64,000 bases of DNA from Escherichia coli (GTDB lineage Bacteria > Pseudomonadota > Gammaproteobacteria > Enterobacterales > Enterobacteriaceae): NCBI RefSeq assembly GCF_036507355.1, contig NZ_AP027877.1; one strand, written 5' to 3'. Below are positions 1-3,000 of this stretch, in pieces; position 1 is the first letter of the stretch, and each line of letters opens with the position of its first letter. Position numbers: made by a program.

Positions 1-3000
1 GATCAACCGTGCGTCCTGCGCCAGTGCACGGCAAATAGCCACCAGCTGACAGCGGGCAATTGAAAGCTCAGAAACGAGTGTATCCAGTGGCAATGTGACG
101 TTAATACTGGTCATTGCCGCCTGCGCCACCTCACGCAGACGACGGCGGTTAACAAACAGACCGTGGTGATAGTGATTCACGGCGATATTCTCCCAGACAC
201 TCAGGTTAGGAAATAAAGAGAGGTCCTGATAAATCACCTGAATCCCCTGCGCCACCGAAGCGGCGGGTGTCAGCTTTGACCAGTTTTTCCCACCAAGCGT
301 AATTTCCGCTCCCTCATCCGGGCGATAAACACCGGACATAATTTTAATCAACGTCGATTTACCACAGCCGTTTTGCCCGGCAAGGCAGTGCACTTCACCC
401 GACATAAAGTCGAGAGAAACATCGCGCAGCGCTCGCGTGGCATGAAACGTTTTGTTGATATGACGAAGGGAAAGGAAGGTTTCCATAACATCCCCTGGCA
501 ATAAGAATCGGGGCTTTCGCCCCGAAGAAATGGATTAATAAAGTGAGTCGATATTGTCTTTGTTGACCAGTAATACCTTATGGAAACGGATAATTCGCTT
601 ATCCATATCTACGTCGGCCTTACCCAGATTCTGCATTTCTAATCCAGGTTTGATCTCTTCACCCTTCAGCAACGTACTGGCGACGGCTGCGAGTGCGTAA
701 CCTGCAGAGGCCGGATCGTAAGTAATCCCTTCGGTGATATCACCACTTTTAATCAGTGATGCCGCCTGTGAAGGGATCATCATGCCATAGACTGCGACTT
801 TATTTTTCGCCCGTTTCTCTTTCACCGCACGTCCCGCGCCAATCGGACCGTTTGAACCAAAGGAGACAACCGCTTTCAAGTCAGGATAGGTTTTCATCAG
901 GTCCAGTGTGGTACGACGTGAGTCATCCACACTCTCGGCAACCGGCATGCGGCGGGTAACTTCATGCATATCCGGGTAATGCTCTTTCTGGTATTTCACC
1001 AGCAAGTCAGCCCATAAGTTATGCTGCGGCACGGTCAAACTACCCACGTAAATCACATAGCCGCCCTTGCCCCCCATGCGTTTCGCCATATGCTCAACAT
1101 ATTCAGCGGCAAATTTTTCGTTATCAATGATTTCAATATCCCAGTTAGCACTTGGCTGACCGGGGGATTCGTTGGTCAGAACCACAATTCCGGCATCTCG
1201 CGCTTTTTTGAATACCGGTTCCAGCACGTTGGCATCGTTTGGCACGATAGTAATTGCATTAACCTTACGGGCGATTAAATCCTCAATAATTTTGACCTGT
1301 TGCGGAGCATCAGTACTTGAAGGCCCCACCTGTGAGGCATTAACACCAAAGGCTTTACCCGCCTCAACCACACCTTCGCCCATGCGATTAAACCACGGCA
1401 TACCATCGACTTTAGAAATATTCACCACGACTTTTTCCGCTGCCTGGAGCGGCGCAGAAATTAGCGCAGCGCCTAATAACAGCGAAGACACCATATTGAT
1501 AACAAAACGTTTATTCATCATTTCAGCCTCATTGCAGGGTAGTCAGGAAGTGTTCGCCCAAATTAGCGCGCTGGAGAGAATAAGAATTTTCGAATATTTT
1601 TATGCAGAATAAACAGCTCTATTTCAGGCAGCTATTAAAAATATGGTTATAAATATGGACAAAACGGGCAGCAATAATAAGTGTGACATTCATCACGTAA
1701 AAAACAGCAAAATAAACAAAATTAGCGATATTTTATGTTTGTGAGCTTATTTCGTGTAGATAAATAGTTATCTATACAACGTCAATAAGGGCATATTCTT
1801 CAAAGATAACGTCCATTTCTGGTGAATAGCTTCCTTCTGCCTGGAAAAAACGACGGTGTTCATTACGCCAATATTCAAGACTGAGGTCACCTTCACCTTC
1901 CTTACGGGCAAGCTCCGCGGTGACATCAGAAAAGCGCAGTAAATGCAGGCCAATCACTCTGATAACACATACAGGCTCACCACAGCTATTTTCTACAATC
2001 TTATACTCACCAATCATCGGAAATGCGTTGTCTTCAATACATCCCGCCAGCGAACCACAGGAAGCTGTTTTAACACCAGTCGCAATCAACGTTGCGAGGT
2101 GATCGGCCAACGCGGCTGAATCGCCAAAAGTACAAAAGGAAGCATGGGGATATTTTTGTGAGAATTTTTCTTTTATGGTCATGGCAATATTTTTGCGATT
2201 ACGGAAAAACAAATCACATCTTAATTACTGTTGGTAACCATCAGCAAGAGTATCATTGGTTTTTCGATACTGAATCTTTTTTATCCGAAGCAGGTCACAT
2301 TTATGGCCTGATAAATACCTTTGTTAAAACTCACTTTTGTGTATTTCTCTCAAATAATCCCCTGGAAATTATGCCGGGAGATTATAAAGTTCAGGATCAT
2401 TCATTAGCAAACCATTCCCCCCCACTCCCTGGGGCTTAAATCTCTTACTATTCACCGTTGCAGGCGTTTCAAATGCGCATCAACCTGCCACACTCCCCCA
2501 CACCAGTTGCCCTTTATGGAACGTTGCGGTTCTCGGCGAGATACGCGCCACCGCCTCGGCGGAACAGGAGGCGTCCACCAGCACAAAGGTGGCGTCATCT
2601 TGCGCTTTGGGCCAGACGCGCTCGCCTTTTTCGTTGAGCGGCAATACATCACCAGTGGCTAAAAACAGCGAGCGGGAGAGGTTCTGTTCGTTAGGACGAA
2701 TATAGAGCTGCGCGTACAGATTGGCTTTTTCCAGCATGTCGCCCAGGCCGTAGGGAGACCAGTGGTCGATAACGCTGTCGGTGCCGGTCATGACTTTTAC
2801 GCCTTTGTCGTGCAGCTGTTTGAGCGGCATATGCAGCGTGCCAATCGGCACCGTCGAGGCGATAGAAATTTGCTGCGCCGCCATCCGGTGCGCCAGTTCA
2901 TCTACCTGTTGTTCGTTGAGCGTAGCCAGCGCGAAGGCGTGACTGATGGTCAGCTTGCCCTTCAGTTGCGGCGTTTTCTCTACCGTTTCAACCATATAAT

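What the first reader, a model, noticed from the sequence alone, without database searches (positions are those of the whole stretch)
1..2212. Sugar ABC transporter and small hypothetical gene flanking yahJ
A binding-protein/ATPase pair and a small hypothetical gene follow yahJ; from memory the K-12 neighbour is yahK, so this may be a strain-specific replacement. A GC hairpin at 510-525 separates the binding-protein gene from the ATPase gene, the usual arrangement for over-expressing the binding protein.
Basis: partly seen in the sequence, partly recalled or inferred. Interest (0 to 1): 0.3.

Follow-up and report, generated by a model that had tools for sequence, protein, structure and literature searches.

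The report
Known Aau D-ribulose/arabinose ABC transporter
The genes next to yahJ are the start of the already characterised Aau sugar-uptake operon of E. coli (O-island 17), which imports D-ribulose under L-arabinose/AraC control, plus a small ASCH-domain gene; the K-12 layout that lacks them is a deletion scar.

Summary
On the minus strand, window 1-2212 carries:
- the first 162 codons of an ABC ATPase (486..1);
- a GC hairpin (525..508);
- a 328-aa periplasmic binding protein (1521..535);
- a 136-aa ASCH-domain gene (2182..1772), just downstream of yahJ.

The system is not new. The binding protein matches AauA (PDB 9I1M) at 327 of 328 residues. AauA is the D-ribulose-binding subunit (Kd about 2 uM) of the AraC-dependent AauABCD transporter on EHEC O-island 17 (Cottam et al. 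2024, 2025).

yahK still follows the operon. 2210 of 5426 complete E. coli genomes carry the segment. 2803 carry one shared scar that keeps the last 72 nt of aauD, part of the aau promoter and the last 50 nt of the ASCH gene. K-12 therefore lost the locus.

Small additions from this work:
- a predicted CRP site plus tandem AraC half-sites at 1697-1633, conserved upstream of orthologues in other genera, often beside araC itself;
- the binding-protein/ATPase spacer is unusually structured in 53 of 67 orthologous loci, which fits a role in differential expression (inferred, not shown).

Verdict: already known, low interest.

The parts
1..486 (-). aauB, 5' part. This is the first 162 codons of the two-domain sugar ABC ATPase; the gene continues beyond the window start.
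   Evidence: Pfam ABC_tran 2.7e-25. It differs at one residue from the first 162 residues of O157 AauB: the window has Gln87 (CAG, 228..226) where O157:H7 WS4202 has an amber codon. That SNP is reported in PMC11127945.
508..525 (-). Intercistronic hairpin UCGGGGC-GAAA-GCCCCGA followed by UUCUUAUUG, inside the 48-nt aauA-aauB spacer.
   Evidence: dG -14.3. It is identical in a divergent Escherichia (L032). Hairpins of different sequence occupy the same spacer in other genera. 53 of 67 spacers have z below -2 against shuffles.
535..1521 (-). aauA, the periplasmic D-ribulose (weakly L-arabinose) binding protein, 328 aa. RefSeq uses the second ATG at 1518.
   Evidence: 327 of 328 residues identical to PDB 9I1M. 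All six ligand-contacting residues named in PMC12307932 are present: K37, W43, E118, H167, E196, S223. Pfam Peripla_BP_4.
1633..1670 (-). Predicted AraC activator site: tandem half-sites I1 TGCCCGTTTTGTCCATA, spacer TTTA, I2 TAACCATATTTTTAATA.
   Evidence: It is the only position in the 64-kb window, on either strand, scoring 15/20 or more on the TAGC-N7-TCCATA x2 rule. It is also the top hit of a weight matrix built from orthologous promoters of other genera (31.1 bits; next best 13.5). Equivalent sites lie upstream of aauA orthologues. AraC dependence of the roughly 300-bp promoter fragment was shown experimentally in PMC11127945.
1682..1697 (+). Predicted CRP site TGTGACATTCATCACG, 11 nt upstream of the AraC I1 half-site on the transcribed strand.
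   Evidence: It is the only match with at most one mismatch to TGTGA-N6-TCACA in the window. By count this is not above chance (1.56 expected). The case rests on its position and on the araBAD-like order CRP, I1, I2.
1606..1611 (-). Candidate -10 hexamer TATTCT of the aau promoter (inferred).
   Evidence: Read from the sequence. It lies about 22 nt downstream of the end of I2, as in araBAD (own knowledge). No transcription start data are available.
1772..2182 (-). ASCH-domain gene (136 aa). It is a separate transcription unit from aau.
   Evidence: PF04266 4.9e-22. Related to PDB 1T62 and 3S9X. Its octapeptide reads G36-V-K38-T-A-S41-C-G43. It is not adjacent to aau orthologues in any other genus. 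It is intact beside the aau scar in Escherichia sp. E2593.
1678..1821 (.). The stretch that survives in K-12-type genomes: the distal aau promoter (diverged) plus the last 50 nt of the ASCH gene.
   Evidence: Window 1750-1821 matches the K-12-type scars at 93-96%.
2381..2410 (-). Promoter-like site TTGCTA-18-TATAAT upstream of the ASCH gene.
   Evidence: 10 of 12 matches. This is a consensus match only.
2480..3862 (-). yahJ (amidohydrolase), the conserved flank.
   Evidence: NCBIfam PRK06846, 713 bits. RefSeq annotation.

Best explanation
Window 1-2212 is the promoter-proximal end of the aauABCD operon (Z0415-Z0419, O-island 17 of EHEC EDL933), together with a neighbouring ASCH-domain gene.

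Shown by others. AauA captures D-ribulose (Kd about 2 uM) and, weakly, L-arabinose (about 600 uM) in the periplasm. It delivers the sugar to a CUT2-type importer made of the two-domain ATPase AauB and the permeases AauC and AauD. Transcription needs AraC and L-arabinose. Imported D-ribulose is phosphorylated by AraB.

Inferred here.
- AraC acts directly at tandem half-sites at 1670-1633, with a CRP site at 1697-1682, in an araBAD-like layout.
- The hairpin at 525-508 acts as a partial terminator, a 3'-end protecting structure, or both. The aauA segment of the mRNA would then outlast or outnumber the aauBCD segment and give excess binding protein.
- The locus is old at this chromosomal site. 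K-12-type genomes lost it in two deletions: first aau, then most of the ASCH gene.
- The ASCH gene is an independent unit of unknown role, possibly an N4-acyl-cytosine/cytidine amidohydrolase.
For: Identity.
- AauA matches PDB 9I1M at 327/328 residues and has all six ligand residues.
- The O157:H7 layout is yahJ, ASCH, SBP, ATPase, permease, permease, yahK.
- Function and AraC dependence come from PMC12307932 and PMC11127945.

Regulation.
- The predicted AraC site is unique in the window.
- Orthologous promoters in Klebsiella, Franconibacter, Mangrovibacter, Yersinia and Pasteurellaceae carry araI-like tandem sites. The roughly 60%-identical group, which I take to be Rbl-type, does not.
- An araC gene (NCBIfam equivalog, 372 bits against a cut-off of 208) lies close to the aau operon in 26 loci, directly upstream of aauA in most of them. 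Providencia has aauABCD, araC, araBAD.

Hairpin.
-.
- The spacer is more structured than shuffles in 53 of 67 orthologous loci, with a median z of -3.2. Stem sequences differ between clades.

Loss in K-12.
- The K-12 yahJ-yahK spacer contains the last 72 nt of aauD, a diverged distal aau promoter and the last 50 nt of the ASCH gene.
- The same scar is present in 2803 of 5426 genomes.
- It is also present, with the same junction but an intact ASCH gene, in Escherichia sp. E2593.
- A divergent Escherichia (88-92% nucleotide identity) has aauABCD-yahK at the same site.
Against: - Only 162 codons of aauB and none of aauC or aauD are in the window, so the intactness of this copy of the operon cannot be judged.
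- The AraC and CRP sites are predictions. The I1 A-box is poor (TGCC against TAGC). The CRP match is not above chance by count. Another promoter-like hit (1701-1674) would put the start site upstream of the AraC sites.
- The U-tract after the hairpin is weak (5 of 8), and it is absent in Klebsiella and Franconibacter. Termination may be inefficient, and no RNA data exist for this spacer.
- The orthologous loci are phylogenetically related, so 53 of 67 overstates the number of independent cases.
- No E. albertii or E. fergusonii locus appeared among the 80 loci kept from the genome scan (151 relatives found). The time of the original acquisition is therefore open.
Confidence: 0.9

Rival explanations
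1. It is an LsrB-type autoinducer-2 uptake system, as the RefSeq product name 'autoinducer 2 ABC transporter substrate-binding protein' implies. A rhamnose (RhaS-type) transporter is a related possibility.
For: The RefSeq name appears. The best NCBIfam hits are RhaS (136.7 bits) and LsrB (111.4 bits). LsrB structures match at E about 1e-24.
Against: Both NCBIfam scores are far below the curated cut-offs (342 and 384). No lsrK or lsrR-type genes are adjacent. The crystal structure and calorimetry give D-ribulose as the high-affinity ligand.
Confidence: 0.03
2. The segment is a recent horizontally acquired island in EHEC-type lineages, and the K-12 arrangement is the ancestral empty site. This is the first reader's 'strain-specific replacement' and the 'horizontally acquired' framing of the papers.
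For: The locus is listed as O-island 17 and is enriched in phylogroups B1, E and D (PMC11127945). Its GC content (38-51%) differs from the neighbouring yah genes (55-62%). The chromosomal context differs in other genera. No E. albertii or E. fergusonii hit is among the 80 loci kept.
Against: The 'empty' site contains pieces of the operon's own genes and promoter, which an unoccupied insertion site cannot have. There are no flanking repeats, integrase or tRNA. One identical scar is shared by 2803 genomes and by Escherichia sp. E2593. A divergent Escherichia has aau at the same site at background divergence. An ancient acquisition before Escherichia diversified remains possible and is compatible with the main explanation.
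Confidence: 0.1
3. The hairpin has no role in differential expression. It is a chance GC palindrome, or a full terminator that ends an aauA-only transcript, with aauBCD expressed from another promoter.
For: The pattern scan finds no more terminator-like sites than chance. The 91-nt context fold gives z -0.9. There are no RNA data.
Against: Structured spacers recur at this exact position in most orthologues with different stem sequences. Only 21 nt separate the hairpin from the aauB ATG, which leaves no room for a separate promoter. The U-tract is weak, which argues against full termination. [quoted passage not shown]
Confidence: 0.15

Closest known systems
AauABCD (Z0415-Z0419), the accessory L-arabinose uptake / D-ribulose transporter of EHEC O-island 17 (Cottam et al., Nat Commun 2024 and 2025; PDB 9I1M)
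   Same: The binding protein is 327/328 identical and has all ligand residues. The gene order and the yahJ...yahK location are the same. The nucleotide sequence is 99.4% identical to O157:H7 over 1-2480.
   Different: This allele has Asp at residue 200 where 9I1M has Val. It lacks the amber codon at aauB codon 87 found in EDL933/TUV93-0-type O157:H7. Otherwise it is the same system.
Rbl D-ribulose utilisation locus of Citrobacter rodentium (ROD_24811-61)
   Same: It is also a CUT2-type SBP-ATPase-permease-permease operon for D-ribulose. I take the roughly 60%-identical group to be Rbl-type. Its operon is followed by an FGGY pentulose kinase and a KpsF/GutQ-like isomerase.
   Different: Binding-protein identity is only about 60%. 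It has its own kinase. There are no AraC-type sites upstream. According to PMC12307932 it is not found in E. coli.
araFGH high-affinity L-arabinose ABC transporter and the araBAD promoter (AraC/CRP regulon)
   Same: Dependence on AraC and L-arabinose is shown in PMC11127945. The predicted order CRP site, I1, I2, core promoter resembles araBAD (own knowledge of the araI sequences). The binding-protein gene comes first in the operon.
   Different: The binding protein belongs to a different family branch (RhaS/LsrB-like, not AraF) and prefers D-ribulose. Its half-sites are degenerate.
Intercistronic stem-loops that set subunit ratios in binding-protein-dependent transport operons, for example the malE-malF REP (Newbury et al. 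1987, own knowledge)
   Same: A stable GC hairpin sits directly after the binding-protein cistron and before the membrane-complex genes.
   Different: It is a single short hairpin with a GNRA loop and a weak U-tract, not a REP element. No stability or termination data exist for aau.
YqfB-type ASCH amidohydrolases (N4-acetylcytidine/N4-acylcytosine; PMC6972931, bioRxiv 10.64898/2026.02.27.708502)
   Same: It has the ASCH fold family (PF04266) and a conserved Lys in the octapeptide (K38).
   Different: It is 136 aa rather than about 103. The Thr24 equivalent is Ser41 and the Arg26 equivalent is Gly43. It is closest to the uncharacterised 1T62/3S9X 'YhfF' group. Its activity is untested.

Membership tests
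AauABCD (EHEC OI-17 D-ribulose/L-arabinose importer) | Binding protein orthologous to the crystallised AauA, with the D-ribulose-coordinating residues K37, W43, E118, H167, E196 and S223 | tested here: met
   327/328 identity to 9I1M. All six residues are present.
AauABCD (EHEC OI-17 D-ribulose/L-arabinose importer) | Operon order aauA-aauB-aauC-aauD between yahJ/ASCH and yahK | tested here: inconclusive
   The window holds yahJ, ASCH, aauA and 162 codons of aauB in that order. aauC, aauD and yahK lie outside the window. Genomes 99.4-99.6% identical over 1-2480 are annotated with the same genes there, and the complete order was seen in O157:H7.
AauABCD (EHEC OI-17 D-ribulose/L-arabinose importer) | AraC- and L-arabinose-dependent promoter upstream of aauA | tested here: inconclusive
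   The dependence was shown experimentally by others on about 300 bp upstream. Here there is a strong in silico AraC I1-I2 candidate at 1633-1670 but no binding data.
CUT2 family of ABC importers (TC 3.A.1.2) | Peripla_BP_4 binding protein, one ATPase with two fused ABC domains, and BPD_transp_2 permeases | tested here: met
   PF13407 and PF00005 in the window. A 494-aa ATPase and two permeases follow in the reference locus. BPD_transp_2 was seen on the permeases of L087.
LsrB autoinducer-2 binding protein (NCBIfam NF011937) | Score above the curated equivalog cut-off (384 bits) | tested here: not met
   111.4 bits. The RefSeq product name is therefore not supported.
RhaS rhamnose ABC binding protein (TIGR02637) | Score above the curated cut-off (342 bits) | tested here: not met
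   136.7 bits.
Rho-independent terminator / intercistronic attenuator | GC-rich stem-loop immediately followed by a U-tract | tested here: inconclusive
   The stem is met (7 pairs, 6 G-C, dG -14.3). The tail has 5 U in 8. U-tracts are absent in several orthologues. Termination efficiency cannot be tested with these tools.
YqfB-type ASCH amidohydrolase | ASCH domain with the octapeptide G-x-K-x-x-T-x-R (Lys21, Thr24, Arg26 of YqfB) | tested here: inconclusive
   The domain is met. The octapeptide is GVKTASCG: Lys is kept, Thr is replaced by Ser and Arg by Gly. There is no NCBIfam match.
Mobile genomic island (integrative element) | Integrase or transposase, flanking direct repeats, or a tRNA target | tested here: not met
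   None are annotated in the 26-kb O157 locus. The inverted-repeat scan of 1-2600 showed nothing that frames the segment; direct repeats were not scanned. The 'empty' site is a deletion scar.

The most novel reading that the evidence does not exclude
The Aau transporter is not a pathogen-specific horizontally acquired island that 'hijacked' AraC. It is an old member of the arabinose regulon. In many Gammaproteobacteria its orthologues carry araI-like sites and sit beside araC or araBAD. In Escherichia it was resident between ASCH and yahK. It was then lost from about half of E. coli, K-12 included, through a single ancient deletion whose scar is shared with a cryptic Escherichia lineage. A second deletion later removed most of the ASCH gene.
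Probability: 0.6. Interest if true: 0.3.

Novelty: already known. Interest (0 to 1): 0.12.

Why it matters
The locus matters biologically, but that is already published. Aau gives EHEC a competitive advantage in the gut by importing D-ribulose when L-arabinose is present.

What this check adds is modest.
- It corrects the database name 'autoinducer 2 binding protein'.
- It shows that the K-12 reference lacks the system through deletion, not because others gained it.
- It pinpoints a testable AraC/CRP site.
- It shows that both the AraC link and a structured binding-protein/ATPase spacer are conserved well beyond E. coli.

These points could refine the 'pathogenicity island' framing of Aau. They do not reveal a new kind of system.

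Tried and rejected
- Rfam, E-value mode, on 1-6000. Nothing was found in 1-2600. The only hits were the known naRNA4/REP325 array at 4922-5237.
- Folding 470-560 with coding flanks gave an unremarkable z of -0.9. The spacer alone was the appropriate unit.
- The terminator and promoter pattern scans are not enriched over shuffles, so they were used only to locate sites.
- A single-half-site AraC search with two mismatches gave 40 hits against 45.5 expected, which is uninformative. The tandem-site model and comparison with orthologous promoters were needed.
- NCBIfam has no model for the ASCH protein.
- A literature search for yahJ + yahK + ABC transporter found nothing. The link to the literature came from the PDB code 9I1M.
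- The idea that ASCH belongs to the aau operon was rejected. A 250-bp promoter region separates them. ASCH is never adjacent to aau in other genera. It survives intact where aau is deleted. In Kosakonia its homologue sits in an unrelated context.
- The idea that ASCH travels with yahJ was not established. The pairing was seen only in Escherichia.
- L087 (an assembly with many split genes) shows the same yahJ-ASCH-aau-yahK order. It was not used as independent evidence, because its 95% identity with many frameshifts looks like assembly error.
- I ran no further search on the yahJ-yahK junctions of E. albertii or E. fergusonii. The cost was not justified for an already known system.
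Full report
**What is in the sequence**

All genes in window 1-3862 are on the minus strand. Read in the direction of transcription they are:
- yahJ, 3862..2480.
- A 297-nt gap.
- A small ORF, 2182..1772. It is 136 aa from the ATG; the longest ORF, from a TTG at 2212, is 146 aa.
- A 250-nt AT-rich gap.
- A 328-aa ORF, 1521..535.
- A 48-nt spacer.
- An ORF that starts at 486 and runs off the window start (162 codons).

Pfam assigns these to Amidohydro_3, ASCH (4.9e-22), Peripla_BP_4 (4.5e-63) and ABC_tran (2.7e-25).

The spacer contains UCGGGGC-GAAA-GCCCCGA at 525..508. It has 7 pairs, 6 of them G-C, and dG -14.3 kcal/mol, and is followed by UUCUUAUUG. Three details need adjusting: the hairpin spans 508-525, the annotated start of the small gene is 2182, and the ATPase is only a fragment.

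**Identity**

The binding protein matches PDB 9I1M at 327 of 328 residues. A search for that code led to Cottam et al., Nat Commun 2025 (PMC12307932) and Cottam et al., Nat Commun 2024 (PMC11127945).

9I1M is AauA, the binding protein of the accessory L-arabinose uptake system AauABCD (Z0415-Z0419), which lies on O-island 17 of EHEC. The papers report the following.
- AauA binds D-ribulose with a Kd of about 2 uM and L-arabinose with a Kd of about 600 uM.
- The operon is induced only by L-arabinose and needs AraC.
- Imported D-ribulose is phosphorylated by AraB.

All six ligand-contacting residues named in the paper (K37, W43, E118, H167, E196, S223) are present in the window's protein.

RefSeq calls the protein an 'autoinducer 2 ABC transporter substrate-binding protein'. 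The LsrB and RhaS equivalog models score only 111 and 137 bits, against cut-offs of 384 and 342. That name is not supported.

**Synteny and the 'replacement' idea**

In O157:H7 the order is yahJ, ASCH, aauA, aauB, aauC, aauD, yahK, yahL. In a K-12-type genome yahJ is followed directly by yahK. Nothing is replaced, however, because yahK is still there.

Of 5426 complete E. coli genomes, 2210 carry at least 80% of window 1-2480.

The K-12 yahK-yahJ spacer is not a clean empty site. It contains:
- the last 72 nt of aauD, which RefSeq annotates as a 75-nt pseudogene fragment;
- a diverged copy of the distal aau promoter, window about 1678-1771, ending just after the TCACA of the CRP site;
- the last 50 nt of the ASCH gene, followed by the yahJ flank.

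A 280-nt query across this scar is covered at 80% or more in 2803 of 5426 genomes. Nearly all E. coli that lack aau therefore share one scar.

Escherichia sp. E2593 has the order yahJ, intact ASCH, scar, yahK. Its aau junction is the same as in K-12. This implies two steps: first the aau deletion, then loss of most of the ASCH gene.

A divergent Escherichia genome (L032) is 88-92% identical at the nucleotide level. It has aauABCD-yahK-yahL at the same site, with an ASCH 3' remnant fused to the pdeL side.

I conclude that the aau-positive state is the older one at this site and that K-12 lost the locus. When the operon first arrived is open. Its context differs in other genera, and no E. albertii or E. 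fergusonii locus is among the 80 loci kept from the scan.

**Regulation (inferred)**

The papers show AraC dependence of a reporter carrying about 300 bp of upstream sequence. They do not mention a binding site.

On the transcribed strand the gap reads: CRP-like CGTGATGAATGTCACA (1697-1682), 11 nt, TGCCCGTTTTGTCCATA (1670-1654), TTTA, TAACCATATTTTTAATA (1649-1633). A possible -10 hexamer, TATTCT, follows at 1611-1606. From my own knowledge of the araI sequences, this is the order found at araBAD: CRP, I1, I2, core promoter.

The tandem site is the only position in the 64-kb window that scores 15/20 or more on a simple TAGC-N7-TCCATA x2 rule. It is also the top hit of a weight matrix built only from orthologous promoters of other genera (31.1 bits; next best 13.5).

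Those orthologous promoters have clear araI-like pairs:
- Klebsiella: TAGTATTATTATCCATA-TTTA-TAGCTGAATATTACCTG.
- Rodentibacter: TAGCGGATTTTTCCATA-TTCT-TAACAGAAAGTTACCTA.

The roughly 60%-identical group does not have them. In that group the operon is followed by an FGGY pentulose kinase and a KpsF-like isomerase. I take this group to be Rbl-type by analogy with the C. rodentium locus described in PMC12307932.

An araC gene lies close to the aau operon in 26 loci (NCBIfam equivalog, 372 bits against a cut-off of 208). In most of them it is directly upstream of aauA. Providencia has aauABCD, araC, araBAD. Budvicia and Limnobaculum have a second binding-protein/ATPase/permease set (only weakly RbsB-like by NCBIfam), then araC, then aauABCD.

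The AraC link therefore looks like an old property of this transporter clade, not an adaptation specific to EHEC.

**The hairpin**

On its own the hairpin is an ordinary GC stem-loop. The pattern scan finds no excess over chance.

Its position is what counts. In 67 orthologous loci with a binding-protein/ATPase spacer of 25-150 nt, the spacer folds better than shuffled versions, with z below -2 in 53 loci and a median z of -3.2. The stems differ in sequence between clades:
- Escherichia, Klebsiella, Franconibacter and Symbiopectobacterium: CGGGGC(G..) stems.
- Yersinia: GCAGAGCCG...CGGCUCUGC.
- Pasteurellaceae: AUAUGGGUUC...GAACCCAUAU.
- Aeromonas: GGUGGCGCCA...UGGCGCCACC.

This is what selection on structure would produce. 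It fits the classical explanation for such operons: a partial terminator and/or a 3'-exonuclease barrier that enriches the binding-protein message (the malEFG precedent, from my own knowledge).

The U-tract is weak here and missing in several orthologues, so I favour stabilisation or attenuation over full termination. I put about 0.55 on this mechanism. It remains an inference, and the loci are not phylogenetically independent.

**The small gene**

It is an ASCH-domain protein of the widespread 136-aa 'YhfF' group in Enterobacterales. It is related to the uncharacterised structures 1T62 and 3S9X.

Its octapeptide GVKTASCG keeps the catalytic Lys of YqfB-type N4-acetylcytidine amidohydrolases. 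It has Ser in place of Thr24 and Gly in place of Arg26.

It is not part of the aau system:
- It has its own upstream region with a promoter-like site at 2410-2381.
- It is never adjacent to aau orthologues in other genera.
- It persists where aau is deleted.

My best guess, at low confidence (about 0.3), is a small amidohydrolase acting on N4-acylated cytosine or cytidine compounds.

**Verdict**

The feature is real, correctly described and biologically meaningful, but already characterised in two recent papers. Novelty: already known. Interest is low. The only mildly new angles are the deletion polarity, the predicted AraC/CRP site, and the conservation of the AraC link and of the structured spacer across genera.

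Noticed in passing
window 4867-5232: There are 3.9 tandem copies of a 93-bp REP/BIME unit between yahG and yahI. Three of them match Rfam naRNA4 (RF02564) at 78 bits. The 135- and 162-aa ORFs listed there (the 'yahH' region) are repeat artefacts.
   Followed up: partly
window 226-228 (minus strand, aauB codon 87): The window has CAG (the Q-loop Gln). O157:H7 WS4202 has TAG at this codon, which makes its aauB a pseudogene. This is the nt-259 SNP reported for TUV93-0 in PMC11127945. The window's allele is the intact type in the part that is visible.
   Followed up: yes
window 1754-1777: An AT-rich palindrome, GTGTAGATAA-atag-TTATCTATAC, spans the ASCH stop codon. It is retained in the K-12, B2 and E2593 scars. 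It could be a protein-binding site or a weak terminator. It remains unexplained.
   Followed up: no
L085 9001-9660 (Escherichia sp. E2593): This is a third configuration of the locus: yahJ, intact ASCH, aau scar, yahK. Its aauD-3' junction is the same as in K-12, which points to a two-step loss and an old, shared deletion allele.
   Followed up: yes
L032 8457-16633 (genome labelled E. coli SCPM-O-B-8794, 88-92% nucleotide identity): aauABCD-yahK is present, but yahB to yahJ and most of the ASCH gene are missing. The ASCH 3' remnant is joined to the pdeL side. This is an independent deletion on the other flank.
   Followed up: partly
L005 (contig SFEK01000152.1, labelled Bacteroidales MAG): This 4.7-kb contig is 99% identical to E. 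coli aauABCD. It is almost certainly a mis-binned Escherichia contig in the metagenome-assembled genome.
   Followed up: no
L043, L048, L050, L052-L062 (Pasteurellaceae): araC-aauABCD is followed by a roughly 530-aa FGGY kinase that matches only XylB, and weakly (99.6 bits, below the cut-off). It may be a dedicated ribulokinase that would make the cluster self-contained.
   Followed up: no
L017, L019 (Providencia) and L023, L024, L030, L041 (Limnobaculum, Budvicia): aau orthologues are physically embedded in ara gene clusters. Providencia has aauABCD, araC, araBAD. Limnobaculum and Budvicia have a second ABC transporter gene set (binding protein only weakly RbsB-like), then araC, then aauABCD.
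   Followed up: partly
window 1251-2500 against 2501-8000: GC content is 38-42% over the aau promoter, the ASCH gene and the yahJ-ASCH gap. It is 49-52% over aauA and aauB and 54-62% over yahJ to yahF. The yah cluster itself is well above the usual E. coli average.
   Followed up: no
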